Part shown: piece after piece, positions 6,655-57,698 of the stretch | Position numbering within the stretch: position 1 is the stretch's first letter | Layout: each line of letters begins with the position of its first letter | Assembly (NCBI GenBank): GCA_963665775.2 | Contig: CAXXTF010000002.1 | Location: 928,001-992,000, forward strand | Direction: 5' to 3' | Source of the DNA: Dehalococcoidia bacterium | GTDB taxonomy: Bacteria > Chloroflexota > Dehalococcoidia > SM23-28-2 > RBG-16-64-32 | Length of the DNA: 64,000 nt | The notes under the pieces: generated by a model | What the model saw: only the letters and a program-made list of their open reading frames with translations | What the model was told of the DNA's origin: nothing | The model's database searches: none | Made by a program: the position numbers and the translations under genes

Positions 6655-6729
6655 TCCCCGGTAGCTCAACGGTAGAGCGGGCGGCTGTTAACCGCTAGGT
6701 TGTAGGTTCGAATCCTGCCCGGGGAGCCA
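6655..6729 (+). tRNA. tRNA-Asn(GTT); integration target of the island
   Basis: Acceptor TCCCCGG/CCGGGGA, anticodon arm GCGG-CTGTTAA-CCGC, TTCGAAT loop, CCA. Confidence 0.97.
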
Positions 6730-7119
6730 GTTCACCAGCCAGGAGTTTACCCAGGTCCTTCAGGACCGCGGTGTGAAGATCAGCATGAACGGGAAGGGAA
6801 GGTATGCGGACAACATCTTCGTGGAGCGGCTGTGGCGCACGGTGAAGTACGAGGAGGTGTACCTGAAAGCCTACGCCAGCGCGGGGGAGGCCCGGAGGGA
6901 ACTGGGAGCTTACTTCCGGTTCTATAATGACCAGAGGCTCCATCAGGCCCTGGGATACCGGACCCCAGGCGAGGTGTTCAGCGAGGCCACGGCCCTCCGG
7001 GAGGAAGAGTCGAAGAAGAGGAGGTGTTCACCGGAACCAGTGGTGGTATCATCGGCAGAAGTGGCGGGACTCTCACTTAACTCCGCCCCAATTCTGTCCA
7101 ACTGACTGGGTCCACCTCA
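6722..7119 (+). mobile_element. IS3-family transposase 3' half with right end, fused directly to tRNA-Asn
   Basis: GSQFTSQEF...ISMNGKGRYADNIFVERLWRTVKYEEVYL; terminal ...CTGTCCAACTGACTGGGTCCACCTCA. Confidence 0.88.
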
Positions 7120-7331
7120 CTTTCCAAACAGCCTGGTGTCCTGCGGGTGCGGGAGATCACCTCGCCGCAGCCGGACGGGACGGCGGCCGGCAGGTCGCCC
7201 GCCTGCGACGGCAACAGGACCAGTGGAGGACAGGCGCCGTCCCGATAGGCGCCCGCACCGCTGAGGTCAAGCGAGGCCACGCGACCGGCCATGCACTGAG
7301 AAGACCACTCCCCCACAGGAAGAAGACACAG

Positions 7332-10300
7332 ATGATTCAAGGAAGGCTGTTCAGGGCGTCGGCTGTTGCCTTCGCGATGGTAGCCGTCACGTTCTTCGCG
7401 GTGTTCGGCTCCGGGGCGTCCGCCGATGAGGAGGAGGTCAAGACTCGGGACCAGGGTCAGGACGAGGCTGTGACGCTCCCGGAGAACCAGGCTCCGGCCA
7501 TCCCAGAGAAGCAAGGACAAAGATACCCCAACCTCGGCTCCCACTTGGACCGACTGGTGATCCAGGTCGAGGCGGGAGAAGCCTCCGTTCAAGACGCCGC
7601 CGAAGGCGCTGCGATGCCCGGGGGAGGAACGGTGGCAGTGACCATCCACCTCTCCGGCAACGTGGATGAGGTCGTTAGGTTCCTGGAGGACAACGGGGGC
7701 GACCCGCGCAACGTGGGTGAGGACTACATCGAGTCATACGTGCCGGTTACCTTGTTGAGACGGGTCTCGCAGCAGGCGGGCGTCATACGTGTGCGGGAAA
7801 TCGTCGTGGCGGAGCCGGACCAGAGTCCCTCGCGGGTGGCCGGGCACGGCCCGCCCGTGCACGGCTCCGCGGCCTGGAACAAGGTCGGATACGCCGGGCA
7901 GGGCGTCAAGGTAGGGATAATCGACGGTGACTTCAGGGGCCTGAGCAGCCTCATGGGAACCGACCTGCCGACGACGGTGGTCGCCCGCTGCTACACGGAT
8001 GTCGGCGTGTTCTCCAAGAATCTCGCCGACTGCGAGGCGGTCAGTGACGAGACTGTTTACCTCCCGTTCCCGGAATGTGGCGAAGCTGTTCAGCGCAGCA
8101 GCGTCCGCGATGCCGGTCATGGCACGATAGTTTCCGAGGCGATCATTGACATAGCTCCGGAGGTGTCACTGTACATCGCCAACCCACAATCAAAGGCAGA
8201 CATGCAAGATGTCGTTGAGTGGATGGCATCTGAAGGTGTAGCGGTTATCAACCAATCACAGAATTGGTTCCTTGATGGTCCCGGCGATGGCACTTCGCCA
8301 CGCAGCAACAGTCCGCTACGGACCGTGGATCTGGCCGTGGCCCGCGACATCACTTGGGTCAACTCAACTGGCAATACTGCTCGGAATACCTGGTTTGGGG
8401 GCTACGAGGACCCGGACGGCGATAGGATCATCAGCTTCGCGAGCGGCCTGAATGGCGAATTTCTCGATATCCCTGTCGGGGAGTGCAGGAGGTATACCGT
8501 TCAGCTGCGGTGGGAAGACACCTGGAACGGAACGAGTACGGATCTCGACCTATATCTTTACGACAAGCGATCTGGCGAACTCATTCCAGCAATGTCCAGC
8601 CGGGATGAACAATCGGGAGAAAGTGGTCATGAACCATTTGAATGGTTGCGATTCTGGTCCAGGACTGACAGCGATGATCTTAGTCTAGTAGTATACCACC
8701 ACGGTGGCGACGCGCCCGACTGGATTCAGTTGATGGTATGGGGAACCGCGTCTATCGAGCACTACACCAAAAGCGGCAGCATTGGGAACCCGTCGGAGAG
8801 CGCGAATCCCGGTTTGTTGGCGGTGGGCGCAGCCCATTGGGACGACGTTCGCGCCATCGAACCCTATAGCAGCCGCGGTCCAACCCCCGACGGGAGGGTT
8901 AAGCCCGACGTCGTCGGAGCGGACTGCGGAGCAACGGCGCTGGAACCTCTGAATGAGTACAACCAAGGATTCTGCGGCACCAGCCAGGCGGCGCCCCACG
9001 TGGCCGGTATGGCGGCCCTTGTACGCCAGCGGTTCCCAGGTTACACCCCTGCCCAAGTGGCCGGGTACCTGAAAGACACTGCCCAGCAGCGCCAGAGCCC
9101 CGACCCCAATAACACCTGGGGGCACGGATTCGCCAAGCTCCCGGCGCCCGACGGGTCAGTGTCCACGGTGCCGACGCCGTCCAATGCCTTTACCCGGAAT
9201 CTTGCGGCGGAATTCGACACATTGACCGGCGCTTTCAATTGGACGCCACAGGGCATCTGGTCCGACGGGACGACGATGTGGGTGGCGGACTGGCTCGACG
9301 CTAAGCTCTACGCATACCACGCGGTGACCAAAGCGCGGGTCCCCGGCAGGGACTTCGATACGCTGGCGGCCGCCGGCAACACTTGGCCGAGTGGCATCTG
9401 GTCCGACGGGACGACGATGTGGGTGGCGGACTGGCTTGACCAAGAGATTTACGCCTACGACATCGCGTCCAAGGCGCGGGTCCCCGGAAAGGAGTTCAAC
9501 ACCCTGGAAGCTGCCGGCAACGCTTGGCCGCAGGGAATCTGGTCCGATGGGACGACGATGTACGTCGCGGACTTCGCCGACGAGAAGATCTACGCCTACG
9601 ACATGGAGACGAGGGCGAGGGTTCCCGGCAAGGACTACGATACCTTGAGGGCCGCTAGAAACAGGTCTCCGCGTGGCATCTGGTCTGACGGGACGACGAT
9701 GTGGGTGGCGGACTCGGATAAGGAGAAGGTCTACGCCTACGACGTGGCGACGCGGGCACGGGTTTCCGGCAGGGAGTTCAATACCCTGGAAGCTGCCGGT
9801 AACTGGGGACCGCGAGGCATCTGGTCCGACGGGACGACGATGTGGGTGGCGGACTTCACGGGCACTGAAGAGACGATATACGCCTACTCCATGCTGAAAG
9901 AATCTGCCGCGGACAAGGGAGAGCTGATTGCCTTCTACAACGCCACCGGCGGCACTGGCTGGACGAACAACGCCAACTGGCTGACGAGCTCACCAATGGG
10001 CCACTGGCACGGCGTAACCATCGACGACGATGGCCGCGTCACTCGACTGGATCTCCACAATAACCAACTGAGCGGGAATATACCGTCGGAGTTGGGCAAC
10101 CTCTCCAATCTAAGAGAGCTGGTACTGAGCGAAAATCAGTTGACCGGGTCTGTCCCAACGTGGCTGGGGAACCTCGCCAACTTGACGGTGCTGAGCTTGG
10201 GGGGCAATCAACTGACGGGGGAGATACCGACTGAGTTGGGGAGCCTCTCCAACTTGACGGTGCTGAGCCTCTCAGACAACCAGTTGACCGGGTGTATCCC

Positions 10301-11147
10301 GGTCGGCATCGCGGGCGTGGCGAACAATGACCTCGATCAGATTGGCCTACCGTTCTGTGGGGGTTCGCAAGGGGCTCCAAGCATAAACTCGATCACTACT
10401 GGAGCTAATTTCCTCACCGTCACCTGGACTGCGCCGGGCGTCTCCGGTGGATCGGCGATCATCGCCTATGACCTGCGGTATATCCAAAGCGACGCCACCG
10501 ATAAGTCCGACGCCCGCTGGGCCGTTGTGGATAATGCGTGGACTACCGGCTCCGGCCCTCTGAGTTACCAACTATCGGGTCTCACCACCATTACCCAATA
10601 CGACTTGCAGATACGGGCAGTCACCGCCACCGGTGATGGCCCCTGGTCTTCCACTGCCACCGGAACGCCGACCCCGCCCACGGGCGCGAGCGCCACCCGG
10701 TCCTTCTCCGCAGCCTGGGTAGCGCCGGGCGGGACGTTGACGGTGACCATCACGGCGGACAACTACGGGAGTCTGGGCAGGATCGTCGAGGACGTTCCTG
10801 CCGGGTTCACCACCGAGGACGGCAGCCAGACGGTCATCATCAGGCTGCTGGCCGCAGGACCTCAGACCAGCACCTACACCGTTACCGCCTCCGACGTGGA
10901 GGGTTCCTATACTTTCTCCGGCACCCTGCGGGATGATGAAAGGAACAATCATGCGGTTGGTGGCGATACCACGGTGACGGTGTCCTCTGGGGACCCGCTG
11001 GTTGCGAGGTACGACGCCAACAACAACGGGACGATTGAAAAGAACGAGGTCATAACGGCCATAAACGACTATCTGTTTGGTGTGGGCGACGCCGCCATCA
11101 GCAAGGCAGACGTGATAGAGGTCATCAACCTCTACCTATTCGGTTGA
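7332..11147 (+). CDS. Secreted S8 subtilase with GIWSDGTTMWVAD propeller repeats, LRRs, FN3 and a C-terminal EF-hand/dockerin-like domain
   Basis: Triad GIIDGD / HGT / GTSQAAPHVAG; five GIWSDGTTM repeats; LxLxxNQLxGxIP LRRs; YDANNNGTIEKNE; signal peptide from ATG 7332. Confidence 0.88.
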   Translation: MIQGRLFRASAVAFAMVAVTFFAVFGSGASADEEEVKTRDQGQDEAVTLPENQAPAIPEKQGQRYPNLGSHLDRLVIQVEAGEASVQDAAEGAAMPGGGTVAVTIHLSGNVDEVVRFLEDNGGDPRNVGEDYIESYVPVTLLRRVSQQAGVIRVREIVVAEPDQSPSRVAGHGPPVHGSAAWNKVGYAGQGVKVGIIDGDFRGLSSLMGTDLPTTVVARCYTDVGVFSKNLADCEAVSDETVYLPFPECGEAVQRSSVRDAGHGTIVSEAIIDIAPEVSLYIANPQSKADMQDVVEWMASEGVAVINQSQNWFLDGPGDGTSPRSNSPLRTVDLAVARDITWVNSTGNTARNTWFGGYEDPDGDRIISFASGLNGEFLDIPVGECRRYTVQLRWEDTWNGTSTDLDLYLYDKRSGELIPAMSSRDEQSGESGHEPFEWLRFWSRTDSDDLSLVVYHHGGDAPDWIQLMVWGTASIEHYTKSGSIGNPSESANPGLLAVGAAHWDDVRAIEPYSSRGPTPDGRVKPDVVGADCGATALEPLNEYNQGFCGTSQAAPHVAGMAALVRQRFPGYTPAQVAGYLKDTAQQRQSPDPNNTWGHGFAKLPAPDGSVSTVPTPSNAFTRNLAAEFDTLTGAFNWTPQGIWSDGTTMWVADWLDAKLYAYHAVTKARVPGRDFDTLAAAGNTWPSGIWSDGTTMWVADWLDQEIYAYDIASKARVPGKEFNTLEAAGNAWPQGIWSDGTTMYVADFADEKIYAYDMETRARVPGKDYDTLRAARNRSPRGIWSDGTTMWVADSDKEKVYAYDVATRARVSGREFNTLEAAGNWGPRGIWSDGTTMWVADFTGTEETIYAYSMLKESAADKGELIAFYNATGGTGWTNNANWLTSSPMGHWHGVTIDDDGRVTRLDLHNNQLSGNIPSELGNLSNLRELVLSENQLTGSVPTWLGNLANLTVLSLGGNQLTGEIPTELGSLSNLTVLSLSDNQLTGCIPVGIAGVANNDLDQIGLPFCGGSQGAPSINSITTGANFLTVTWTAPGVSGGSAIIAYDLRYIQSDATDKSDARWAVVDNAWTTGSGPLSYQLSGLTTITQYDLQIRAVTATGDGPWSSTATGTPTPPTGASATRSFSAAWVAPGGTLTVTITADNYGSLGRIVEDVPAGFTTEDGSQTVIIRLLAAGPQTSTYTVTASDVEGSYTFSGTLRDDERNNHAVGGDTTVTVSSGDPLVARYDANNNGTIEKNEVITAINDYLFGVGDAAISKADVIEVINLYLFG

Positions 11148-11167
11148 TTCGGGTCCAGTCAGGTATC

Positions 11168-11201
11168 GGGAGGGGGTTCCTCCGTCACGGATCCCCCTCC
11201 C
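11168..11201 (+). terminator. GC-rich hairpin after the S8 gene
   Basis: GGGAGGGGG...CCCCCTCCC inverted repeat; no clear U-tract. Confidence 0.45.
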
Positions 11202-11218
11202 AGAACGTCACCTAACAA

Positions 11219-11455
11219 ATGAGGAAGAACTTGGTATTGAGAATCGCGTGGGCGGCAATGATGGTCACGGTCACAGCGGGCATGGTGGCCGTGGTGAGCA
11301 TCTTGTCCGCGGCCGCGCAGTCGGCTTCCGGCGCCAGCCGGAGCTTCGATTCGGCGTCGGTCGACCCCAGCGGAGAGGTGGCGGTGATGGTCACCACCAC
11401 CTACTACGGCTAGGCCAGAGGCGTCACCGAGACCCTGCCCGCGGGCTTCGCATGA
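11219..11455 (+). pseudogene. Truncated surface-protein gene sharing a domain with the S8 C-terminus
   Basis: Signal peptide + ASRSFDSASVDPSGEV...YG*ARGVTETLPAGF, similar to ATRSFSAAWVAPGG...YGSLGRIVEDVPAGF; TAG at 11411. Confidence 0.65.
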
Positions 11456-11500
11456 TGCGGTAGAACTGGGACTAACTACAGGTACAGCACCAGGGTCAAG

Positions 11501-11605
11501 GTGAAAGTTCTTGATTTTATCAAGTTTGGTGGGCCTAAGTGTACTGAAGCTAGCACCGTCTTCGAGCTTTGGCTGGGCGGGTTGGGCGGCCGTGCCGGAC
11601 GATAG
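11501..11605 (+). pseudogene. 3'-terminal remnant of a second-type serine recombinase with att-like core
   Basis: VLDFIKFGGPKCTEASTVFELWL resembles VLSTLPDGGPKYTKSRTFVLRL at the end of 30680..31620; 16/18 nt match. Confidence 0.5.
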
Positions 11606-11748
11606 GCTGTACCAACTTCTTGATGTGGCGGGCCGGACTGTGAGCGAACATTCGCAGTTCACAAAAGACACGAATCGCTCAGGTACTGGTGGGTAGTGGA
11701 CTTGAAGTACTACATGGCACGCGTGGCAGGCCCGCAACAAAATGGGGC

Positions 11749-13380
11749 TCAGAGGCGTACTCCGCCGGTCTTCTGAATTCTGAATGCGTGGGACGACACG
11801 TGCCCAACAAACAGCCCGCTCTTGTCCTCACCCCTGGCTAATTCGGCCACCCTCGCAAGGTCCGAGTCTGAAGTACGCACTCCGCCGTAGATTTCCTTGA
11901 TGGCCTCCGGCGGAACATCGACCACTTTGATCGGCCAGCCGTTGTCATCTTTCTGCCCAGTATCTCGCGCCTCCTGCAGATCCACCAGCAGTCTGCCCTC
12001 TCTTTCGTATTCCCACGATGGACCCTTTACGAACAGTAGCCGGCACAGGGCTTGCCAGTCTGCTCCTAGCTGCGTGAGCTCCACAGTTCCTAGAATCGGT
12101 GTTCCATTTCGAGTTCTGCCCGCCCTGGTGTCCTGGTCCATTCGCTCACGATCAGCAAAACGTAACTGAATGACATCGCCCTTTGTCGGCTCGTACACAG
12201 GGGCAATCTCCGTGTAACTCACCTGTCTCAATTCAAAGCCGAGGCTCCTCAAGACTTCCGTATCGTAGCCAACGACTATCCCTGTGTTGAGGGCATAGTG
12301 CGTCCACATCGTCGGGACCGATACGTCCGTGCTCAAGGAGACGACCCCCACAAGAGGATTCAGGGATTCCTGAATGAAGGTCGATAGTCTCAGGTCACCG
12401 AAACGGAGCGCCCGTTCCATGAGCTCCTCTTCCGCCACCTCCACTCCCAGACATTCCTTCAATCTTGACTGCACCCGGGCGATGAAATCGAGAGCATCCA
12501 TCTTCTGGCCGCGCATCGTTATGACATTGCATTCCATGTCGTCGTTCAGGGCCAGCAGTTGGGTTGCCCGCAGGCTGTTCGGCGCCCCTCTGCCAATGTT
12601 CTTCTTGGGTATGTACTTGTACAGGACGCCTGGAACGTCAGCCCTGCCCTCTGCCAGCCTATCCGCGCACTCTTGGAACTGGAACGTTTGGAGCCAGTGG
12701 ACCATGAGACCACGCAAGTTTGACTGCACCCACATGCGGCCCCTTTCGCTCCGAGAGGCTAGCGAACGCCAGGTTGAGGCTGCGTTAGCCGCCGCTCTCA
12801 ACCTGACCGGTTCGCTAAAGGCGTGGTAGCGTCCGTCGACCTGGCAGTAGAATCCTTCTTGCTCAGATGGTTCTATAAGAGCTTCGACGCCTGCGTCTCC
12901 GTTTGCCCTCGGAGCATTCTGTGAATTGGCCAACCTCTGGCGCAGTCGCTGGACGTAATCCTGGTGTCTGACGTTTGGAGACTTGCTTGCCCGGCTGGCC
13001 GTCTCGCCTTGCAAGCCGAAGTCAGAACAGAACACGGCGTAGTCTTGACCCTTCGATCCGCGGCAGTCGCAGTCGTCAGACAAGGTCTCGCACCACGGGT
13101 AAGGACCCTGAGCCAACCGAAACTCGTGGTCGTCCCAACCCTTTGGGAAGCTGTCCTGAATGGATTCCCAGTTCTCGATGTTGTGGACACGCTCGGACAG
13201 CTTAGTAGATATCTCAAAAGAGAAAAGGCGCGGGCGTATCGGCACCGGTGAGTCGGGATTCTCTCCGCCAAGTCGACTTTGGAAGAAAGTCTTGGCCTGC
13301 TCCAGCGACCACCCCGACGCCTGGAGCTTAATCCACATCTGATTACTTTCAAGGGCTATTTCGTAGAGGTGATGCTTCAT
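11749..13380 (-). CDS. DUF2971-like domain protein, possibly defence-related
   Basis: LYKY...LRATQ..ALND..E, VVSLS...MWTHYA...GIVVGYD, K..SWEYEREGR motifs in the C-terminal half. Confidence 0.65.
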   Translation of the reverse strand: MKHHLYEIALESNQMWIKLQASGWSLEQAKTFFQSRLGGENPDSPVPIRPRLFSFEISTKLSERVHNIENWESIQDSFPKGWDDHEFRLAQGPYPWCETLSDDCDCRGSKGQDYAVFCSDFGLQGETASRASKSPNVRHQDYVQRLRQRLANSQNAPRANGDAGVEALIEPSEQEGFYCQVDGRYHAFSEPVRLRAAANAASTWRSLASRSERGRMWVQSNLRGLMVHWLQTFQFQECADRLAEGRADVPGVLYKYIPKKNIGRGAPNSLRATQLLALNDDMECNVITMRGQKMDALDFIARVQSRLKECLGVEVAEEELMERALRFGDLRLSTFIQESLNPLVGVVSLSTDVSVPTMWTHYALNTGIVVGYDTEVLRSLGFELRQVSYTEIAPVYEPTKGDVIQLRFADRERMDQDTRAGRTRNGTPILGTVELTQLGADWQALCRLLFVKGPSWEYEREGRLLVDLQEARDTGQKDDNGWPIKVVDVPPEAIKEIYGGVRTSDSDLARVAELARGEDKSGLFVGHVSSHAFRIQKTGGVRL

Positions 13381-13700
13381 TGGTTCCCATCCACGAACGA
13401 GGTTCCGCATATGGGTCTGTCCGGTACAGTCCCAGACTCATCGCGGTGGTTGGTCTAGGGTCAGCATCGCTTTGGCACCGGTTAAGAGTCAACCGATGCG
13501 CGTCCTCCAGCGGGCCGTCCCTTCCAGCTCGGGGCACGATTTCCTGTTTCTTCGCAACCACCAACGTGTACGGTAGACAGGGCTATCTTCGAGATATGGC
13601 TGGGTGGCCTTGAGGATTCCCATACCGCCCTATAACCGTTTGGTGCAGGCGTCACTCGATATGACAGTAGAATCCCTGCCTGGCTAACTGTTCGACTAGG

Positions 13701-14708
13701 TCAATCATTAGAGTTGTGTTCCTTCTCCCCCTGCTCCTCCCCCTTCGCCATGCGGTAGCCGACCCTTGGCTCGGCGAAGAAGTAGGTGGGGTTGCTGGCA
13801 TCCTCGCCCAGCTTGCTGCGGAGCCGCTTCAGGTGCGTGCGGAGCGCCCCCAGATCGTCCGGCCTCTTGGCCCCCCAGAGCCTTCGTAGCAGCTCATCGT
13901 GGGTCAAGACCCGCCCGGCGTTGACCGACAGCTCGTAAAGGAGCTGATACTCCTTGGCCCTCAACGCCACCGGGCGGCCTGCAAGCGTGACCCGGCGCTC
14001 GGCGTAGTCGATGATGAGGTCGCCCAGCACGTAGGGCTCCGGCGGCTCGGATTGGGGATGGCCTCCACTCCGTCGCAGGGCCGCCCTCACCCTGGCCACC
14101 AGCTCGGTCGGCGAGAAAGGCTTGACGATGTAGTCCGAGGCTCCGGCCTCGAAGGCCCGCGCCACCACCCGGTCCCGGCCGTAGGCGGAGAGGAAGATCA
14201 CCGGCACGTCTGAAACGCCAAGGATGTCCCTCATCAGCTCGATGCCGTCGGAGCCGGGCAGCATCAGGTCAAGCAGGACGAGGTGCGGCCGGTTCTCCTC
14301 CATGAGCGGCAGGGCCTCCACCGGGTCGGCGGTCACTATCGCCCTGTAGCCCGCCTCGGACAGCGCCTTCCTCACGTACCGCAGCGTTTCGGGATCGTCG
14401 TCCACCACTAGGATCGACTCCGCCTCCGACTTCTCCTGTCGAGGGCCCTTGGCCGGCCGGTTGCGCTCCACGGCGGCCTCGTCGACCGCCGGTACAGTGA
14501 AGGTAAACCGCGCCCCCAGCCCCGGCCCGTCGCTCTCGGCCCGGATGCGCCCTCCGTAGGCCTCGACTATCCCCTTGCAGATGGCCAGGCCCAGGCCGGT
14601 GTCCCCTCCCGGGTCGTCGTCCTCGCGCTGGGAGAACTTGCGGAACAGGTGTGGCAGATGCTCGGTGGGTATGCCCCTGCCTTCGTCGGCAACCGAGACC
14701 GTGGCCAA
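13701..14708 (-). pseudogene. 5'-truncated hybrid regulator: HATPase end + REC + OmpR-type wHTH (KdpE-like)
   Basis: VADEGRGI, GTGLGLAI, ILVVDDD, LLDLMLP, KPF, LRSKLGE..NPTY...EPRVGYR; begins mid-ATPase domain. Confidence 0.8.
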
Positions 14709-14832
14709 GGTGGGTGCCAGCCTGTCGATGGTCGGGAGGCCAACACCAGGCTCGCCTGTCTCATCGAGGGTCCCTGTCGTAAGTGGCTCGGTGGTGGGGG
14801 AATCAGGAAGTCCCGTGGAGTCCTTCGACCGC

Positions 14833-15672
14833 CTACTCCCGCATCATCTCGACGAAACGGTTGCCTATCTGCTCCGCGCCCCGTTGGTAGGAGACCGGCA
14901 CCCACCCCTCCGGGTCCTCGCGGATGCGCCCTGCCGTCTCGGGGTTTTCTTGCACATCCTCCCAAACGAGGGCCCAGCGCCTTTCTGTGGGGAAGAGGCT
15001 CTGTGGCGAGTCCGACGCTCCGCCGTCGTCCGCCGTCATGTCTTCTATCATCGGCCGGTCGTACTCAGAGACCTGCCGAACCGCCACGTTGGCATAGCCC
15101 TCCAAGAAGTCCAGCTCCAGGGCGCGGCTCTCCTCTATGGCATAGCGGTGTATTGCTTTCAGCTCTGCCGCCATCTCCCGGACGCGCCTCACGTGGGCCT
15201 CCCACGCCTCGATCACCCGCTCGTTGAGTTGCACGCCGCTCTCCTTGCCCACGGGCAAGCGCTGCTTTCCCCATACCCCCCAAACGTATTCTCGCCAGAG
15301 TTGCGCGGAGAGTTAAGGGCTTGCCCGGCCTTAGGTAGGAGTTTTCGATGAGCAGGGGGCGTGCGGCCTCATTGAAGACTATCGCCTCCTCTACCTCCAC
15401 CAGCGCCCGCTCGAACCATAGGATACGGTCCCGCATTAGGAGTTCCCTTTCCATGCCGTTTACCAGATGAGTGAGCGTCTCCAAGTTGGACTTTAGGATT
15501 TCGTAGCGGCTTACGATGGCGAGAGCGCCGGTTGCTCCCGGAACAAGTTCTCGATGACCAGGCGGGCCTTTTCCTCCGGCCATCCCGAAAGGGCTTCGAC
15601 TATGTCCTCCAAGCGCTTTTCCGGGGAAAGGGCTTCGACTATGTCCTCCAAGCGCTTTTCCAGTGATCCCAT
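14833..15672 (-). pseudogene. Element conserved ~300-aa protein, copy A (frameshifted, 39-bp internal duplication)
   Basis: [25 protein letters not shown] motifs shared with 42519..43427; tandem duplication 15587-15661. Confidence 0.8.
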
Positions 15673-15875
15673 AACACCCCCCATCGGCAGCCTCATCGAC
15701 GGCCTCTGACCCTCGCGCACGGGCGCTCGTCGATGCTCATGAATAGACCCCCACGAGACCGAGCTGCTCAAATGCCCGCTCCACCCCTTCCCTTTGCGAG
15801 CGCAGGACCAGGATAGCCCTCTGTCTGGCTGTGAGGCCGTGACTGACCTTCTGGAGGCGGGTTGCAATCGACACG

Positions 15876-16274
15876 CTAGCGTCGCCTCCCTTGCTTGACC
15901 AGGCGCGGCCCCAGCGCCCCTTCCATGGCCGCCAGCCGGCTCTCGAGCTCTCCCTTCTCCAGAAGGTTGACCGCGACCTGCGCCAGATAGGCGAGGGTGC
16001 GGCTGCGGGCGACGCTGTTCTCCAGGCTGAGAGTATCGAGGATCGCCACTTCGAGTAGCCGCCTGATCCGGAGGATGCTTCCCAGCCCCTCGAAGTCGTA
16101 GGCGCCGGAGACCGCCTTCTCCTTGCGGCGCCGCAGCCCGCCCAGGCGCCTGGCCTCGGCCACCTCCTCGGCGTGCTCGGGCGAGTGCATTAGACAGAGT
16201 TCGGCATCGTGGAGCGGAGGTGCCCGGCAAGGGCTGCCGTCCCCTTTGAGGGTGTTGCAGGCCTGAGATGCCAC
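15876..16274 (-). CDS. Element Cys/His zinc-finger protein, copy A
   Basis: C..G..C.APP....[23 protein letters not shown]...ELESRL; paralog of 42135..42518. Confidence 0.8.
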   Translation of the reverse strand: MASQACNTLKGDGSPCRAPPLHDAELCLMHSPEHAEEVAEARRLGGLRRRKEKAVSGAYDFEGLGSILRIRRLLEVAILDTLSLENSVARSRTLAYLAQVAVNLLEKGELESRLAAMEGALGPRLVKQGRRR

Positions 16275-16364
16275 TATTTGCCACCTCTGCTGACAAGGGG
16301 TGATGGTGGCCTGGAATGAGGCCCAAACGAGTAGGCAGACCCCTGGCGGGGCCTGCCCCTGACG

Positions 16365-16778
16365 CTATTCGGCGGCCGCTGCCAAGCCGTCCGCCCGGTG
16401 CCCGCGGGGGCACTCCGCCGGCGCCCGGTCGTCCGCCACCTCGAAGGCCTCCCCGCAGGCGCTGCAGAAGTATCCGCCGTCCTCCAGACGGCTGACCAAC
16501 CCGTTGCCCGGGTTGGCCTTCCCCTTGCCAGACTTCTTTACCGCCCTCTTCGACTTGGCCTCCTCGTTGCCCGAAACGCTCCAGAACCGCCAGCCGTTGC
16601 AGGCCGTGCCGCCCATCACGGCGCTGCCGGCGGCCGAGGGGCTCTTGAACTCCCGGCCGTCCTCCAGACGGTAGCGTGTGCTCCCATCCCCCTGGACCAG
16701 CTCGGCGGTGTATTCCCGGCCCTTGTAGCGGGCCGCCAGACGCGTGCCCGACCTGAGGTTCCGGTCCGTGATGCTCAT
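16365..16778 (-). CDS. RAMA/DUF4357-like domain protein with C-terminal zinc ribbon
   Basis: GTRLAARYKG...FKSPSAAGSAVMGG..CNGWRFW; CSAC...CPRGH; RBS GAGGAGG. Confidence 0.7.
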   Translation of the reverse strand: MSITDRNLRSGTRLAARYKGREYTAELVQGDGSTRYRLEDGREFKSPSAAGSAVMGGTACNGWRFWSVSGNEEAKSKRAVKKSGKGKANPGNGLVSRLEDGGYFCSACGEAFEVADDRAPAECPRGHRADGLAAAAE

Positions 16779-16913
16779 GCAACACCTCCTCTTGAATTTG
16801 TGCTGTACTACTCACTCTCGTCGGCGCGGAAGTCAACGGGTCGGGGCGCTCACCCCGGCGGTTTCTCGCAACTCCAGGGGTGAGCCACTCACTAACCGGC
16901 GTTAGTGTCGGGT

Positions 16914-17543
16914 TCACTCCGGCCGCTCCTTCTCCGCCCTCTCGCCCGTGAACGCCTCCCAACGGACGATCGCCACCCGGCAGTAGCGGGGGTCCAGCTC
17001 CATCCCGTAGCACCTGCGCCCCGTCCTCTCGGCGGCGATCAAGGCCGTCCCCGAGCCTAGGAACGGCTCCGCCGCGATGTCGTTGGGCTTGCTGCCGTTC
17101 TCCATCGCCCGCACGTAGAGGGAGACCGGCTTCATCGTGGGATGCTGGGGGGAGGACTGGGGCCGGTCTTCCTGCCACACCGAGTCCTCCTTGCGGGAGC
17201 CCTGCCAGCTGCTCTTGCCCTTCCAGCCGTAGAAGATGTGCTCGTGGCGGTAGTGGTAGTGGGAGCGCCCCAGCACCAGCCTGTCCTTCACCCAGATCAA
17301 CCACTGGCGGTGCTCGATGCCGGCGGCCGCGATGGAGGCGCAGAGGGTAGAAATAAGAGGCCCCGGCGGGCAGAACACGTAGGCGTCGCCTTCCAAGGGC
17401 CAGGCGGAAAAGACCTGCGTCCAGAATTCGGCCTGGTCCTGGCCCAGGTCGTCGTTGGCGATGGGACGCCTCCGCTTCCGGCCCCCCGGCTCGTAGGCCA
17501 CGCCGTAGGGCGGGTCCGTCACCAAAAGCGTCGCCGTCTCACC
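16914..17543 (-). pseudogene. N6/N4 DNA methyltransferase, C-terminal part (copy A, ParB domain lost)
   Basis: TDPPY, HPTMKP, PFLGSGT, MELDPRY; homology to other copies stops near 17543. Confidence 0.85.
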
Positions 17544-17544
17544 C

Positions 17545-18164
17545 CCTCAAGATTGAGCCTCGATTGGCGGCGCCACGGCGATTCTTTTCCACAGAGCACG
17601 ACCACGATCAGGCTGGCTCCCAAAGCGCATGGGACCGCAAGGCAAGTTCGAGGGCGATTCTTTGAGTGGCGTAAGAGGGCTGGCCTGGCGGCCGGAGTCT
17701 ATGACCTCCAGGCCTTCATAGCGGATGGGCAGCCGCGCTCGTTCATCCTGCTGGCCGTCCCCAATGAAGAGGCCGTCAAGGTCTCGTCCGGCCAGGCTTT
17801 CGAGGTTGAGTTCCTCGCCTCAGGTCAGGGCCCGGACGAAGTTCTGGCGTGGCTCCAATCCTGTTATCTGGACGAGGCTGCTTCCTGGCAAACATCAGAC
17901 GAGTTGCTGGCGCTCCTAGCGGAGACCAGCGGCCGGCGTCGCTTCCAGGGCTTTGGTAGCGCATATCAGAGGCCTGACCAGGAAGCCACCGATCCTGAAT
18001 CCCAGCCGTTGGGCCGGGTCTCTGGCGGGTCGGGGAGAGTGAAGCAGGCGGAGATGAGCTGTCCTTTCTGTGGGGGCCGGGTCGAGTTTATCGGCGTCTC
18101 GGTCGGACTCGATTCCACCGAGAAAGCCCAGAAGGGCTATCTATGGCGAGGGCTGCCCCGATGA
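17545..18164 (+). CDS. Partial hypothetical protein with C-terminal CPFC motif
   Basis: Open frame from the junction, overlapping the start of the next element ORF. Confidence 0.35.
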
Positions 18165-18367
18165 GGGAAGTGCTAGGCCAACCCGTTGACGGCCCAGGCA
18201 GCGAGGAGCGAATCAAGGGGGTTATCGCCATCCTCGCCGCCGGCCTCGAACGGCTGATGGCCCAGAGGATAACGTCTTCAAATAAGCCGACGGCCGAACT
18301 TGACTTCGGGGATGAGTTAGCGGTTACTACGCACTGCCAGCGGAACGCCGACCGAGAGGAGTGTTAG
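18161..18367 (+). CDS. Small conserved ORF upstream of the recombinase (candidate directionality factor)
   Basis: MREVL...VIAILAAGLERLM...VTTHCQ paralogous to 36917..37117. Confidence 0.6.
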   Translation: MREVLGQPVDGPGSEERIKGVIAILAAGLERLMAQRITSSNKPTAELDFGDELAVTTHCQRNADREEC

Positions 18368-18371
18368 AGAG

Positions 18372-20183
18372 TTGGTCTCGGAGGCCCCTACCAGGATACG
18401 CCAGAACGAGGGTAAGCCGCAGCCGGCCCGACGCGTCGGCCTGGTGATGCGGGTTAGCACCGACCGCCAAGCGCTTAACGAGGAGGGCTCGCTCAAGAAC
18501 CAGCTCCAGCGCCTTCGCCAACACGTCGACTACAAACGGGCGGTCGCCGGCGAGGAATGGACAGAGGCAGAGATCTACGAACTCAGAGCCATCTCAGGCA
18601 AGGACTCCCTCCGCAGCCCTGAATTCCAGCGACTGTTCGCTGATATCCGCTCCGATCGCATCAACACCGTCCTCTGCACAGCCCTCGACCGCGTATCCCG
18701 CTCCGTGAAGGACTTCCTTCACTTCTTCGAGTTCATCAACGAGCACAACGTCGAGTTCGTCTGCCTGAAGCAGAACTACGATACGACGACCCCACAGGGC
18801 AGGCTGTTCGTAACGGTCATGATCGCCCTGGCCGAGTTCGAGCGGGAACAAACCTCCGAGCGCACCAGCGAGGCGGCGGCAGCCAGGGCGGAGCGGGGGC
18901 TGTGGAACGGTGGCCGTCTCCTTGGCTATGACCTGGACCCGGACAAGAAAGGGTCCTTGGTCCCGAACCCGGAAGAGGCGCTGCTGGTCAGTTTCGCCCT
19001 CGACGCCTACCTGGAGTGCGGCTCACTCAAGAATACCGCTCAGGCCCTCAACCGGCGTGGCTATCGGACAAAGGCGTATACGTCACGCCGCGACAGACAC
19101 CACCCAGGCAAGGAATTCACCCTTACGTCCGTCCAGTATCTCCTTAAGAACCCCGCTTACATCGGGATGAAGGAGCTTAATAAGAAACGCGGCCAAAGGG
19201 ATTCCAGCTACCGTCTGGTGGACGCCGTCTGGCCCCCCATCGTCGACGAGGCGAAATTCGAGCAGGTCCAGCGTCTTATGAGGGCCAACGGGCAATCCAA
19301 CCACAACGGCTCTCAGCCCGCCCGGCATTCATACGTCCTCAGCGGCCTCCTTCACTGCGGCCGTTGTCACTCCTTGATGGAGGGCAGGTGCGGGACCGGG
19401 CGGCTCGGCTCTCGATATTACTACTACGTGTGTCGCAATAGAGACTGCGGCCTGCGTGTCAGCGCTGACGAGATCGAGGGGGCAACCCTTGGCCGCATTC
19501 GCGAGCTGGCGAGCTCGCCGGACATCCTTGAGCGTCTTGTTAACGAGACCAACGGCAGGATTGCCGGCGAACGGCCCAAGCTGATTGCTCGGCGGGATGA
19601 CCTCGGGAAGAAGCTGCACGATCTCAAGAATCAGGCAGACAAGGTCCTCGTTGAATGGTCGGCTCTCGAAGAGCAGGCGGGAAGAGCCTTCCTCACAGAG
19701 AAGTTGGGGAATTTAGCTCCGCGCCGAAGCGACCTGGAGCGCGGCATCGCCGAAGTCGAAGAAGCCCTGGCGGCTATGGACAGGGAACGGGTGACGGTGG
19801 AGGTGGTTCGGACCGCCCTCGGCGACTTCGGCCGGCTCTACGCCTGCCTCACCCCGTTTGAGCGAAAGGAGCTAATCAAGCTGATACTTCGCCGGGCGGA
19901 AGTCGGCGTCCGCCAGATCGCGCTGGAGCTGTATCCAATTCCATCAACGGAGATGGCGGCGCAGGGCCGTGTACGCTTTGAGGCACCAAACTGGCTCCCC
20001 GAGTCGCTGCCGCAAAGCGTACTGCGCGACGCCTTTGCTATCCGCCTTCCCAGTATAACTGGCTGGGTTCGAAGGGCACGACGCCGATTCGATAGAGCCT
20101 CCAGATCCCAACGGCGTAATGACCCCAGCCTCTGTAGGGCATCTTCTCCTCCTAGGATTACTGTGCCTAAGTTGGGGGGTTAA
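18372..20183 (+). CDS. Large serine recombinase (intact copy B, attP-type C-terminus)
   Basis: RVST catalytic Ser, ISGK, LDRVSRS, recombinase domain, LSGLLHCGRC/YYVC zinc ribbon, coiled coil, WLP att core. Confidence 0.93.
   Translation: MVSEAPTRIRQNEGKPQPARRVGLVMRVSTDRQALNEEGSLKNQLQRLRQHVDYKRAVAGEEWTEAEIYELRAISGKDSLRSPEFQRLFADIRSDRINTVLCTALDRVSRSVKDFLHFFEFINEHNVEFVCLKQNYDTTTPQGRLFVTVMIALAEFEREQTSERTSEAAAARAERGLWNGGRLLGYDLDPDKKGSLVPNPEEALLVSFALDAYLECGSLKNTAQALNRRGYRTKAYTSRRDRHHPGKEFTLTSVQYLLKNPAYIGMKELNKKRGQRDSSYRLVDAVWPPIVDEAKFEQVQRLMRANGQSNHNGSQPARHSYVLSGLLHCGRCHSLMEGRCGTGRLGSRYYYYVCRNRDCGLRVSADEIEGATLGRIRELASSPDILERLVNETNGRIAGERPKLIARRDDLGKKLHDLKNQADKVLVEWSALEEQAGRAFLTEKLGNLAPRRSDLERGIAEVEEALAAMDRERVTVEVVRTALGDFGRLYACLTPFERKELIKLILRRAEVGVRQIALELYPIPSTEMAAQGRVRFEAPNWLPESLPQSVLRDAFAIRLPSITGWVRRARRRFDRASRSQRRNDPSLCRASSPPRITVPKLGG
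19989..20001 (-). repeat. att core (inverted copy of the tRNA-Asn 3' end) inside recombinase B
   Basis: Reverse complement CGGGGAGCCAGTT equals 6720-6732. Confidence 0.75.
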
Positions 20184-20186
20184 GGG

Positions 20187-21258
20187 TTGCGGATTCAGCA
20201 AGGCGGAGGCGGACGGGTGGCGGTGGAAGGCGAGGACGACAACAGAACACATCTCACTATCGAACATGTGGAGCTCGACCGGCTTAAGCCCGACCCCTTC
20301 AACCCTCGACGGATCGCAGAGCAGGATCTCGACGCCCTAACCAGGAGCATCCAAGAATTTGGATTCGTTGACCCCATCATCGCCCGGCGGGAGGACCGCG
20401 CCGTCATCGGCGGCCACCAACGACTGCTGGCGGCAAGGCGTCTGGGCTTGGCCAGCGTCCCTGTCATCTTCGTTGACCTCTCGCCTGAGCAGGCTAAGCT
20501 CCTCAACCTCTCCCTCAACAAAATCAGTGGCGCCTGGGACGAAGAGCTCCTAGCCCGCCTCCTGGCTGAGCTTAACGAGACTCCGAACGTTGACATCACC
20601 TTTTCCGGCTTCGCAGAGGACGAGATCGCCAAGCTGCTCAAGACCTTGGAGCTACGGGAGAAGCGGGAGCGTACCGAGGTGTTCGATTTCGACGCCGCAT
20701 GGGAAGCGGCAACCGCCGATCCCGGCGTTAGGCGGGGAGACATCTGGCTCCTGGGCGACCACCGGCTTATGTGCGGAGACTCGGCCGACAGGGGCGACGT
20801 GTCGCGCCTGATGGCGGGTCAGACGGCGACGCTGATGGTGACGGACCCACCCTACGGCGTGGCCTACGAACCGCAGGGGCGGACGCGCAGGCGTCCCATA
20901 GCCAACGACAACCTAGGCCAGGGCCAGGCCGAGTTCTGGACACGGGCCTTCTCGGGTTGGCCCTTGGAAGGCGACGCCTACGTGTTCAGCCCCGCGGGAC
21001 CGCTTGACCTGACCCTCTGCCGGTCCATCGTGGAAGCGGGCATCGAGCACCACCAGTGGCTGATCTGGGTGAAGGACAGACTCGTGCTCGGGCATTCCCA
21101 CTACCACTACCGCCACGAGCACATCTTCTACGGCTGGAAGGGCAGGACAAGCTGGAACGGCTCCCGCAAGGAGGAGTCGGTGTGGGAAGAAGACCGGCCC
21201 TTAGCTTCCCCGCAGCACCCAACAATGAAGCCGGCCTCCCTCTTCGTTCGGGCCATGG
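20187..21258 (+). pseudogene. ParB/Srx-N6/N4 methyltransferase fusion, copy B, 3'-truncated
   Basis: NPRRI, FGFVDPII, IGGHQRL, TDPPY, HPTMKP; SAM-binding FxGxG part replaced by unrelated sequence. Confidence 0.85.
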
Positions 21259-21259
21259 C

Positions 21260-21665
21260 CATCTTTACCCCTTTCTTTTCACGCCCAAGACTAACATTAC
21301 TCCTGGACCAGTTCTTGGGGGGCAGGTCAATACGAGCCGTGCTTGAAAGCGAGCGTCGGGTCTTCGCAGCGGCTGACATCACTTCCTTCGGAACGATTTG
21401 TGAGAGCGATCCGGTTGAACCTGAGGGTGACTATACCAACGACGAATCTTGTCGCGAGCGGACGTTTGAAGAGTACCTAAATGGGCAGTCTCGCTTGGAA
21501 TTCTACGACGAGAACATGACGGTGATGGATGTGTGGATAGGGGAGACCGGCCTGATCAATAAGATACGCTTTCAGATCCCCCCTGATGAGCATGGAAGGA
21601 TAGAGCAGGTCATCACCTTCGAATATTCAGAGTTTGGTGAGGTAGTGATCGAGCGTCCTGTTTAG
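21260..21665 (+). pseudogene. C-terminal fragment of a probable lipoprotein (LppX/LprAFG-like), fused in frame to MTase B
   Basis: MDVWIGETGLINKIRF...ITFEYSEFGEVVIERP ending. Confidence 0.45.
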
Positions 21666-57461: not shown

Positions 57462-57698
57462 TCACTTCTGAGCGGGCCCGAGAACTTGGGTCACCCGCGC
57501 CCGTGAAACACCCTGGAGGCGAGCAAGAGCAGCGCGGTTTGGCGCTGCACCCGTTTCAAGCAGCCCTCTCCAGGAGTCCGCCAGATCCTGGACAGCCTTC
57601 CTAGCCGTTGCCTTCCGGCGAGACCAGTTGAGGAGGCTAGCTAAGCGAACGGGGAAAGACTGCCGCAGAACGCTCTGGGACACAAATCCGGGGAGCCA
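57462..57698 (-). other. attR-type end carrying a detached recombinase C-terminal tail with HTH
   Basis: Core CCGGGGAGCCA 57688-57698; reads WLPGFVSQSVLRQSF...NRAALARLQGVSRARVTQVL*; no recombinase upstream. Confidence 0.75.

What the first reader, a model, noticed from the sequence alone, without database searches (positions are those of the whole stretch)
6717..20001. 13-kb inversion apparently made through a pseudo-att site in the IS3 GSQFT motif
Seen: the tRNA's last bases GGGAGCCA are also codons G-S-Q of the conserved IS3 DQGSQFT motif, and the IS3 5' half is missing exactly from there. The segment up to the inverted core at 19989 has unit 3's layout backwards, with recombinase and small ORF divergent from MTase, zinc finger, conserved protein and cargo. 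Inference: an element integrated into IS3's GGGAGCCAG look-alike, then attL x inverted attR recombination flipped the segment. That predicts the observed attB-like (tRNA|IS3) and attP-like (recombinase B) products. IS3 copies could therefore act as secondary attB sites.
Basis: inference. Interest (0 to 1): 0.72.

Follow-up and report, generated by a model that had tools for sequence, protein, structure and literature searches.

The report
Serine-recombinase island array flipped beside tRNA-Asn
A row of mobile islands sits behind the only tRNA-Asn gene of an uncultured Chloroflexota bacterium, and the sequence suggests, without proving it, that the islands' own recombinase flipped a 13-kb piece by using a look-alike of its target inside a broken IS3 transposase gene.

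Summary
tRNA-Asn (6655-6729) ends in CGGGGAGCCA. The same bases open the reading frame GSQFT... of an IS3 OrfB fragment that lacks residues 1-187. An exact inverted copy of the 13-mer lies at 19989-20001.

That inverted site is a true attP of a large serine recombinase (LSR). RecB reads into it, and a ParB-methylase gene follows it. The site has 17 of 24 dyad positions around a central GA.

In related genomes, the tRNA-Asn end is joined to the recombinase arm wherever such a recombinase lies beside it. In this window the two partners sit 13,256 bp apart and inverted. Swapping them restores a canonical attL.

It is not proven:
- The IS3 5' half is missing from the genome.
- No second case turned up: 0 of 11 GTDB loci, 1 spurious metagenome hit, and 2 of 2 other look-alike IS3 sites unrecombined.
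- Contigs could not test either orientation.
- A rival fits about as well: nested integration, then excision, then homologous inversion between methylase repeats.

This is a new member of known kinds and is moderately interesting.

The parts
6655..6729 (+). tRNA-Asn (GTT), the only tRNA-Asn gene of the genome; the B half of the attachment site
   Evidence: ARAGORN; 1 tRNA-Asn among 50 tRNAs in the genome
6720..6732 (+). Left core CGGGGAGCCAGTT. The inferred crossover dinucleotide GA is at 6724-6725. It forms a hybrid attB-like site (tRNA | IS3 3' fragment).
6722..7105 (+). C-terminal fragment (residues 188-314 of 314) of an IS3-family OrfB transposase ('IS3a'), starting at the G of DQ|GSQFT. 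It carries substitutions found in none of the five relatives aligned (SMDGKG to SMNGKG, QRPH to QRLH).
   Evidence: Pfam rve_3; alignment A1; homologs
6733..19988 (.). 13,256-bp segment between the two inverted cores; the candidate inverted segment
6927..11147 (+). Cargo: a long ORF with subtilase, LRR and fn3 domains (true start not determined)
   Evidence: Pfam
11749..14708 (-). Cargo: a DUF2971 protein (11749-13410) and a histidine-kinase/response-regulator fragment (13701-14708)
   Evidence: Pfam
15085..16274 (-). A broken copy of the conserved T1R_D3-like protein (15085-15627, three pieces) and the 121-aa zinc-ribbon-like protein (15912-16274)
   Evidence: tblastn; Pfam for the intact copy
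16929..17546 (-). N6/N4 DNA methylase C-terminal half (residues about 218-431), cut off at 17546
   Evidence: Pfam; tblastn
17631..18367 (+). A 178-aa ORF and a 74-aa ORF directly upstream of the recombinase gene, function unknown. The 74-aa ORF or its unit-3 counterpart has relatives beside the recombinase in 4 of 6 related loci.
   Evidence: no Pfam or PHROG hit
18372..20183 (+). Recombinase B, a large serine recombinase of 603 aa and the only intact copy in the genome. Residues about 545-603 are encoded beyond the core.
   Evidence: Pfam Resolvase, Recombinase and Zn_ribbon_recom; RVSTDRQ motif; TP901-1 integrase E 5e-18; other copies broken
19972..20021 (-). attP-type site: an imperfect inverted repeat (17 of 24 positions) around GA (19996-19997), containing the inverted core 19989-20001
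   Evidence: bridged by a 2635-nt contig of run X20 (17554-20188, 3 differences)
20002..20186 (+). P arm, encoding the recombinase tail. It is 88% identical to the arm left of the core at 35272.
20187..21665 (+). ParB-N/DNA methylase gene. It is colinear with a 95%-identical relative up to 21329 and has a degenerate C-end.
   Evidence: Pfam
24166..24178 (+). Core of the next island junction (attP-like, dyad 18 of 24), followed by a recombinase copy that lacks residues 1-197 and is cut by IS sequence at about 25208
35272..35284 (+). Core of the junction between units 2 and 3 (attP-like, dyad 18 of 24). Recombinase 3 has two in-frame stops.
57689..57698 (+). Core CGGGGAGCCA with a P arm on its left and an AT-rich, non-symmetric right flank; the likely attR end of the array

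Best explanation
Setting. The window holds a roughly 51-kb array of integrative islands (6730 to about 57700) that integrated one after another into the 3' end of the single tRNA-Asn gene, using a large serine recombinase. The attP of this recombinase is a roughly 50-bp imperfect palindrome around the dinucleotide GA in CGGG-GA-GCCA.

Proposed history:
1. An island copy integrated into an IS3-family transposase gene. Its codons for FNTDQGSQ (..TTC AAC ACC GAC CAG GGG AGC CAG) mimic the tRNA's T-arm and acceptor end. This made a site of the form P arm | core | IS3 3' half, in inverted orientation.
2. The recombinase, presumably with a directionality factor, exchanged strands between that site and the tRNA-proximal attL (tRNA | core | recombinase-B arm).
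3. Because the sites were inverted, the 13,256 bp between them flipped. This left a hybrid attB (tRNA | IS3 3' half) at 6720 and a reconstituted attP (recombinase B, core, ParB-methylase) at 19989.

What is shown: the two junction structures, the identity of the recombinase, the attP symmetry and the canonical attL in relatives.

What is inferred: the integration into IS3, the inversion itself, the need for a directionality factor, and a later deletion that removed the IS3 5' half.
For: - Exact inverted 13-mers sit at 6720 and 19989, each exactly at a module boundary.
- RecB has the Resolvase, Recombinase and Zn_ribbon_recom domains, an RVSTDRQ motif, and matches the TP901-1 integrase catalytic domain at E 5e-18.
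- The site at 19989 has 17 of 24 dyad positions around GA. The tandem junctions at 24166 and 35272 have 18 of 24. The array end at 57689 has at most 10 of 24.
- In relatives, tRNA-Asn is joined at the same core to GTTTGGTG... and a recombinase reading toward it:
  - 9 of 10 loci scanned for tRNAs carry tRNA-Asn with that junction.
  - 7 of 11 loci of the GTDB pattern scan carry a full tRNA-Asn on the left, 1 more has a contig end consistent with it, 2 have partial tRNA-like flanks, and 1 is attP-like.
  - 5 of 27 further relatives' tRNA-Asn loci with downstream sequence carry the arm.
- Proteins of relatives in the integrated state end ...NWLPGQDSNLQPSG, read from the tRNA (5 of 6 fetched).
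- The flipped segment has the layout seen next to the tRNA in two relatives, G387 and G031: recombinase and small ORF divergent from methylase and zinc-ribbon genes.
- The IS3 fragment begins exactly at the motif.
- An intact IS3 copy with the GGG codon matches the 25-nt tRNA half-site plus core at 17 of 25 positions. Only 125 of 4,699,178 positions in this genome score that high.
- A direct exchange between attL and an intact IS3 cannot give the observed P arm next to recombinase B. The IS3 half must therefore already have been joined to a P arm (follows from the junction structures).
Against: - The reciprocal product of integration into IS3 (IS3 5' half | core | recombinase arm) is absent. 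There is no tblastn match to the N-terminal 177 residues of IS3 OrfB other than the resident, different IS3 family, and no other core plus arm in the genome.
- The genome is only 91% complete by markers.
- No second example was found: 0 of 11 GTDB loci, 1 metagenome hit that is a chance match in a coiled-coil gene, and the 2 other IS3 look-alike sites among 401 class genomes both intact at the motif.
- No directionality factor was identified. The 74-aa and 178-aa ORFs have no Pfam or PHROG match.
- With an intact recB, an attP and a hybrid attB in cis, the recombinase alone should flip the segment back. Why the genome sits in this state is unexplained.
- The array carries other rearrangements that the model leaves unexplained: the methylase cut at 17546, the breakpoint at 21329, and the 80-bp overlap between 17465-17544 and 34378-34457.
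- Inverted methylase repeats (443 bp, 85% identical, with a 49-nt perfect run) flank the recB-attP block and could have flipped it by homologous recombination.
Confidence: 0.42

Rival explanations
1. No 13-kb inversion took place. The IS3 copy lay in direct orientation in the cargo of the first island, and another island integrated into its look-alike site. Recombination between the tRNA-proximal attL and that inner attR then excised everything between them as one circle. This left tRNA | core | IS3 3' half and removed the IS3 5' half. Separately, homologous recombination between the inverted methylase repeats 17102-17544 and 20816-21258 flipped the 3.3-kb block 17545-20815. That block holds the ordinary island-island junction (methylase, P arm, core, recombinase B).
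For: - It explains the absence of the IS3 5' half without an extra deletion.
- The repeats are 443 bp long and 85% identical, with a 49-nt perfect run, which is enough for RecA-type exchange.
- Flipping 17545-20815 back gives an array with all cores in direct orientation, and a complete ParB-methylase, zinc-ribbon and conserved-protein module next to a P arm. Units 2 and 4 and locus L044 have that arrangement.
- The same flanking of a junction by inverted methylase genes recurs at 35272.
Against: - It needs two independent events that happen to mimic the reciprocal products of one exchange.
- A 95%-identical relative (P0121) is colinear with the present methylase gene on both sides of the repeat: 97-100% in the N-half and 95-100% in the degenerate C-end, with only an 87% patch at residues 211-290. 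Relative to that lineage there is no single crossover, unless the inversion is older than their split.
- Another relative (P0210) joins the C-half at 17546 to an N-half that is 98% like unit 2's. The N-half that the flip-back would give it is only 77-100% like P0210.
- 85% identity strongly lowers homologous recombination (established knowledge, not tested here).
Confidence: 0.3
2. The tRNA|IS3 junction was made without the recombinase. A rare microhomology-mediated deletion occurred between the 12 identical bases GGGGAGCCAGTT of the attL and of an intact IS3 copy in direct orientation. The inverted recombinase block has a separate origin.
For: - The 12-nt identity between tRNA-plus-arm and the IS3 motif is real.
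- No integration into IS3 needs to be assumed, which matches the lack of any other such case.
- The IS3 5' half would be deleted automatically.
Against: - Deletions between 12-nt repeats kilobases apart are very rare (established knowledge).
- The breakpoint coincides with the one place where a site-specific enzyme encoded in the locus cuts.
- The IS3 site resembles the tRNA half-site well beyond the 12 nt (17 of 25 positions).
- A second event is still needed for the inverted attP.
Confidence: 0.08
3. The tRNA|IS3 junction is an assembly artefact that joins two repeated sequences.
For: - tRNA and IS3 are both repeated in the community: depth in bin 6651-7301 is 30-1000 times that of neighbouring bins.
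- None of the 32 contig pieces listed (4,234 more were not shown) bridges 6729.
Against: - The two sequences share only 12-13 bases, which is too few for a k-mer or overlap assembler to join them wrongly (inference).
- The window lies in a 1.49-Mb contig of a two-contig genome.
- The other junction is bridged by a contig of run X20, whose contigs also carry a 45-bp difference from the window elsewhere.
Confidence: 0.04

Closest known systems
Serine integrases of phages and integrative elements (phiC31, Bxb1, TP901-1, SPbeta SprA): attP x attB integration, with factor-dependent attL x attR
   Same: - Same domain set: Resolvase, Recombinase and zinc ribbon.
- The catalytic domain matches TP901-1 integrase.
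- The attP is a roughly 50-bp imperfect palindrome around a non-palindromic central dinucleotide.
- The rule that only attP x attB, or attL x attR with a factor, recombine is taken from PMC3783163 (abstract seen in the listing).
   Different: - The target is the 3' end of tRNA-Asn.
- The recombinase ORF runs through attP, so integration swaps its last 59 residues for 10 residues read from the tRNA.
- No phage genes were noted among the ORFs scanned.
- No directionality factor was recognised.
Dehalococcoides ssrA-specific genomic islands (McMurdie et al. 2011, PMC3146451; passages read)
   Same: - Same bacterial class, by kinship with named MAGs.
- Tandem islands lie behind a single-copy small-RNA gene, each bounded by a repeat of its 3' end.
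- A serine recombinase of about 540 aa lies next to attL on the reverse strand.
- A ParB-domain gene lies in the module.
   Different: - The target is tRNA-Asn, not ssrA.
- No second small serine recombinase (DsiA) was found.
- The passages read do not mention an inverted att site or a pseudo-site in an IS.
Pseudo-attB integration by large serine recombinases (PhiBT1 in Nocardia, PMC5937489; title and abstract start seen in the listing)
   Same: A serine integrase uses a chromosomal sequence that only partly resembles its attB.
   Different: - Here the use is inferred from one junction, not shown.
- The pseudo-site would be a conserved catalytic-core motif of a transposase gene.
- The product was then recombined with the primary attL.
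Integrase-driven chromosomal inversions (plasmid-borne integrase in Thermococcales, PMC5495485; abstract start seen in the listing)
   Same: A recombinase encoded by a mobile element is proposed to invert chromosomal segments between short tRNA-related sequences.
   Different: - That case is recalled to involve a tyrosine integrase; this detail was not seen in the listing.
- That case is in archaea and concerns large chromosomal segments.
- Here the enzyme is a serine recombinase, the segment is 13 kb, and it lies inside an island array.

Membership tests
Large serine recombinase (serine integrase) | N-terminal resolvase-type catalytic domain with the serine nucleophile | tested here: met
   Pfam Resolvase at residues 26-177, E 4.8e-32; motif MRVSTDRQ; TP901-1 integrase catalytic domain at E 5.2e-18. 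Which serine is the nucleophile is inferred from the motif (recalled).
Large serine recombinase (serine integrase) | C-terminal Recombinase domain and zinc-ribbon domain | tested here: met
   PF07508 at E 3.7e-18 and PF13408 at E 1.4e-07
Large serine recombinase (serine integrase) | attP is an imperfect inverted repeat of about 50 bp around a central dinucleotide shared with attB | tested here: met
   17-18 of 24 complementary positions around GA at three sites. GA is present in the tRNA core.
Large serine recombinase (serine integrase) | Catalysis of attP x attB recombination | not testable with these tools
   Needs an in vivo or in vitro assay.
IS3-family transposase OrfB | rve (DDE) integrase core with the DQGSQ motif region | tested here: met
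   rve_3 at E 5.7e-15. The fragment is 93-97% identical to residues 188-314 of 314-aa proteins that carry rve, rve_3 and HTH_21. It is a fragment, not a functional gene.
Recombinase-mediated inversion between attL and an inverted attR | Two cores in inverted orientation at the exact ends of the segment | tested here: met
   Exact 13-mers at 6720-6732 (+) and 19989-20001 (-)
Recombinase-mediated inversion between attL and an inverted attR | Swapping partners at the cores restores sites known from un-rearranged relatives | tested here: met
   tRNA plus recombinase-B arm equals the attL seen in relatives.
Recombinase-mediated inversion between attL and an inverted attR | The reciprocal product of the earlier pseudo-site integration (IS3 5' half | core | recombinase arm) is present | tested here: not met
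   Not found in the genome. The genome is 91% complete.
Recombinase-mediated inversion between attL and an inverted attR | Both orientations, or the ancestral one, seen in reads or strains | tested here: inconclusive
   Only contigs could be laid. One bridges the attP (X20, 17554-20188). None of the 32 listed pieces bridges 6729 or shows a strand change there, and 4,234 pieces were not shown.
Recombinase-mediated inversion between attL and an inverted attR | A recombination directionality factor is available | tested here: inconclusive
   The 74-aa ORF or its unit-3 counterpart has relatives beside the recombinase in 4 of 6 related loci, but it has no family match.
Dehalococcoides ssrA-GI type integrative elements | Integration at ssrA, with a DsiB/DsiA recombinase pair | tested here: not met
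   The target is tRNA-Asn. No second serine recombinase appeared among the ORFs scanned. The defining features are taken from passages of PMC3146451.

The most novel reading that the evidence does not exclude
The 13-kb segment may be a live, recombinase-driven flip-flop. In the present state, recombinase B is full length (603 aa, tail encoded across attP), and it faces an attP and a hybrid attB in cis. Flipping would give the canonical attL with a 553-aa recombinase. The conserved FNTDQGSQ codons of IS3 transposases with a GGG-AGC reading would then be a general secondary landing site for tRNA-Asn-specific serine recombinases. Islands could enter IS copies there and scramble genomes.
Probability: 0.1. 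Interest if true: 0.65.

Novelty: new member of a known kind. Interest (0 to 1): 0.4.

Why it matters
If the reading is right, this would be a natural case of a serine integrase leaving its tRNA target for a look-alike that is fixed by the catalytic motif of a widespread transposase family. The enzyme would then have rearranged its own island array through that site.

This would link two classes of mobile elements mechanistically. It would also give a concrete, testable pseudo-attB (GGG-AGC against GGA-AGC, that is GA against AA at the crossover) for a recombinase family from uncultured Dehalococcoidia. Such enzymes are of interest as genome-engineering tools.

As it stands, the locus is one scrambled array with an attractive but unproven history.

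Tried and rejected
- IS3a in relatives. I looked for other copies of the IS3 fragment's DNA in 40 relatives. Only about 79%-identical pieces of a different IS3 turned up.
- IS3 5' half. tblastn of the fragment and of a resident full OrfB against the genome found none.
- Sequencing runs. 6 runs hold the stretch, and all are kept as contigs. Laying 4 of them showed that the organism or close strains are present. It gave no bridge over 6729 among the 32 listed pieces and no strand-changing joint among the 15 listed joints. 4,234 pieces and 82 joints were not shown.
- One listed joint explained. The joint 15433 to 17465 is unit 2's sequence mapping in two pieces, not a variant.
- GTDB scan for the recombinase arm. 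11 loci, none with IS3 on the left.
- JGI metagenome scan for IS3 codons joined to the arm. 1 hit, a chance match in a coiled-coil gene. The cap then barred a second metagenome scan.
- Scan of 401 class genomes for the core followed by IS3 codons. 3 genomes matched including this one, and the other two are intact at the motif.
- Alternative-orientation protein. I searched for a near-identical recombinase B with the tRNA-read tail. The only close relative (P0241, 92% identical in the last 204 residues) has the attP-type tail.
- The core-like match at 63984 lies in a gene present in three copies in the genome and is unrelated.
- The match around 57689 to recombinase residues 515-568 (37% identical) suggested another junction. 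The site has no dyad symmetry, so I read it as the attR end.
- Earlier notes of this scan: none.
- I could not derive a single full history of the array. Several orders of events fit.
Full report
**What is at the coordinates**

ARAGORN finds three tRNA genes, the last being tRNA-Asn(gtt) at 6655-6729. Its 3' end reads ...CCTGCCCGGGGAGCCA. From 6722 the + strand reads GSQFTSQEFTQVLQDRGVKISMNGKGRYADNIFVERLWRTVKYEEVYLKAY... to a stop at 7103-7105. This frame matches Pfam rve_3 at E 5.7e-15.

A search for longer relatives found 314-aa IS3-family OrfB proteins that are 93-97% identical. In the alignment, the fragment covers their residues 188-314 and starts at the G of NTDQ|GSQFT. Codons GGG AGC CA(G) therefore overlap the last bases of the tRNA, and 187 codons plus orfA are missing.

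The 13-mer CGGGGAGCCAGTT occurs exactly twice in the window, at 6720-6732 (+) and 19989-20001 (-). One-mismatch copies lie at 24166 and 35272, with a further chance one at 63984, and a shorter copy at 57689.

**What the elements are**

The ORF 18372-20183 ('recombinase B', 603 aa) has the Resolvase, Recombinase and Zn_ribbon_recom domains. It carries an MRVSTDRQ motif, and its N-terminal domain matches the TP901-1 integrase catalytic domain at E 5e-18. It is a large serine recombinase.

Two further copies are broken. The copy at 24044-25519 lacks residues 1-197, cut by IS sequence at about 25208. The copy at 35093-36913 has two in-frame stops.

All three ORFs run through the core. Residues about 545-603 are encoded on the far side, the 'P arm', and a ParB-N/DNA-methylase gene follows directly.

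The sites at 19989, 24166 and 35272 are imperfect palindromes, with 17, 18 and 18 of 24 positions complementary. They are centred on the dinucleotide GA of CGGG-GA-GCCA. The site at 57689 has no such symmetry, with at most 10 of 24. The first three are therefore attP-type sites, as expected at junctions between tandem islands. I read 57689 as the attR end of the array.

The tRNA-Asn gene is the only one among 50 tRNA genes in the genome.

**The canonical arrangement in relatives**

Recombinases 49-76% identical occur in 19 of 401 genomes sampled from the same class, counting this one. Of 10 such loci scanned, 9 carry tRNA-Asn. In these loci the tRNA end CGGGGAGCCA (or CCGGGAGCCA) is followed directly by an arm such as GTTTGGTG... 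and a recombinase gene reading toward the tRNA.

A scan of one genome per GTDB species for the arm motif gave 11 loci:
- 7 have a full tRNA-Asn on the left.
- 1 ends after 16 bases that are consistent with tRNA-Asn.
- 2 have partial tRNA-like flanks.
- 1 is attP-like.
- None has IS3.

Among 27 further relatives' tRNA-Asn loci with downstream sequence, 5 carry the arm and the rest carry unrelated sequence. Proteins of relatives in the integrated state end ...NWLPGQDSNLQPSG, which is the tRNA read backwards (5 of 6 fetched). One close relative of recombinase B (P0241, 603 aa) has the attP-type tail.

Next to the tRNA, two relatives (G387, G031) show the recombinase and a small ORF divergent from methylase and zinc-ribbon genes. 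This is the layout that the window's segment has backwards.

**What this says about the finding**

In this genome the tRNA end is joined to an IS3 fragment, not to a recombinase arm. The only intact recombinase, with its arm, faces an inverted core 13,256 bp away and is joined there to a P arm.

Exchanging partners at the two cores (inverting 6733-19988) gives two sites:
- a canonical attL (tRNA | core | GTTTGGTGCCTCAAAGCG..., recombinase B reading toward the tRNA);
- P arm | core | IS3 3' half, an attR whose outer half is IS3.

The present sites are therefore formally a hybrid attB and an attP in inverted orientation. These are the products expected of attL x attR recombination. For serine integrases this reaction needs a directionality factor (PMC3783163, abstract seen in the listing).

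A direct exchange between attL and an intact IS3 is excluded, because it would put the IS3 5' half, not a P arm, next to recombinase B. The IS3 3' half must already have been joined to a P arm, which means an island had recombined with the IS3 site.

**Plausibility of the IS3 site**

The motif FNTDQGSQ is conserved in the family. Among 14 distinct IS3 motif sequences from the class, 2 use GGG for the glycine and 1 (in G079) reads GACCAGGGGAGCCAGTTC exactly. That copy matches the 25 bases of tRNA half-site plus core at 17 positions. In this genome, only 125 of 4,699,178 positions score 17 or more.

The six resident IS3 copies read GGA AGC, which puts AA and not GA at the crossover. By the known need for identical central dinucleotides, they should not be substrates.

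1. The reciprocal junction is absent. There is no IS3a 5' half and no other core plus arm anywhere in the genome, so a later deletion must be added.
2. No independent case was found.
3. The four runs laid are contigs only. One contig of run X20 covers 17554-20188 with 3 differences and bridges the attP. All four runs also carry a 45-bp difference at 15574-15620. None of the 32 listed pieces bridges 6729.
4. The array has other scars:
   - The methylase gene next to the 178-aa ORF is cut at 17546.
   - Its first 80 bp are 94% identical to the last 80 bp of unit 2's truncated methylase.
   - A relative (P0210) has these two halves in one gene.
   - The methylase after the attP is colinear with a 95%-identical relative only up to 21329.
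5. Inverted methylase repeats (17102-17544 and 20816-21258, 85% identical, with a 49-nt perfect run) flank the recombinase-attP block.

**The main rival**

- The IS3 lay in direct orientation in the first island, and another island integrated into it.
- attL x inner attR then excised everything between. This also removes the IS3 5' half.
- Homologous recombination between the methylase repeats later flipped 17545-20815.

Against it, P0121 is colinear with the present methylase gene on both sides of the repeat: 97-100% in the N-half and 95-100% in the C-end, with an 87% patch in between. That shows no single crossover relative to that lineage. Also, two unrelated events would have to mimic the reciprocal products of one exchange.

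**Probabilities**

| History | Probability |
|---|---|
| Composite excision plus homologous inversion | about 0.30 |
| Recombinase-independent microhomology deletion | about 0.08 |
| Assembly artefact | about 0.04 |
| Histories I could not formulate | the rest |

I put the narrower claim, that a recombinase-type exchange at the IS3 GSQ motif made the tRNA|IS3 junction, at about 0.7.

**Comparison with what is known**

The recombinase is a member of the large serine recombinases; all sequence features tested were met. The array resembles the ssrA-specific islands of Dehalococcoides, with tandem islands, a serine recombinase next to attL and a ParB-domain gene (PMC3146451, passages read). It differs in its target and lacks the second small recombinase.

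Use of pseudo-attB sites by serine integrases is known (PMC5937489, listing only). Integrase-driven inversions are also known (PMC5495485, listing only).

My four literature searches for the combination returned no paper on a serine-integrase pseudo-site inside an IS3 transposase motif, or on a natural inversion through one. These searches cover open-access papers and bioRxiv only.

**Verdict**

The locus is a new member of known kinds and is of moderate interest.

Noticed in passing
window 19989-20183; also 35093-35284 and 24083-24178: The recombinase ORF runs through attP. In the attP or tandem state the last 59 residues come from the P arm. In relatives' integrated state they are replaced by 10 residues read from the tRNA (...NWLPGQDSNLQPSG). 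The tail is conserved in a 92%-identical relative (P0241).
   Followed up: partly
window 17465-17544 and 34378-34457: An 80-bp direct repeat (94% identical) links a methylase C-half (cut at 17546) and unit 2's methylase N-half (cut at 34378). A metagenome protein (P0210) carries both halves in one gene (98% and about 94% identical). This points to a further rearrangement or to two nearby independent truncations.
   Followed up: partly
window 18979-20029 and 24138-25191: Recombinase B and the truncated recombinase 2 form a 1054-bp inverted repeat (93.7% identical) around a 4.1-kb segment that has P arms at both inner ends. Homologous recombination could flip this segment.
   Followed up: no
window 17605-17625: GGGAGCCAG on the - strand, directly next to a CGCTTTG motif like that of the P arm, lies 60 bp from the methylase truncation point. 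It may be a decayed att-like site or chance.
   Followed up: no
window 21329/21330: The ParB-methylase gene is 95% identical to relative P0121 up to 21329 and unrelated after. In the relative, an IS-like repeat and a type I restriction R-subunit-like region follow. This is a breakpoint in one of the two lineages.
   Followed up: partly
window 15574-15620: Contigs of all four runs laid skip 45 bp here relative to the window, so the strains in those runs differ from the assembly.
   Followed up: no
window 37269-43427 and 53460-57173: Unit 3 carries an ECF sigma factor and an 868-aa protein with a DnaG-type zinc finger upstream of the methylase. The 'conserved protein' has a T1R_D3-like domain, and the next gene has a T1RH-like C domain. 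The module therefore looks like methylase plus restriction-type helicase pieces, present twice in inverted orientation (81.5% identical over 2.2 kb).
   Followed up: partly
window 25208-26771: Recombinase 2 is cut by a patch of two different IS fragments. One is a 5'-truncated copy of the resident IS3, which has five other copies in the genome.
   Followed up: partly
window 58066-62045; 9245-9949; 27798-29083: Three sets of tandem repeats: four tandem paralogous genes of about 1 kb just right of the array end; 141-bp repeats inside the subtilase/LRR ORF; and 387-bp repeats inside a Cache-domain protein gene.
   Followed up: no
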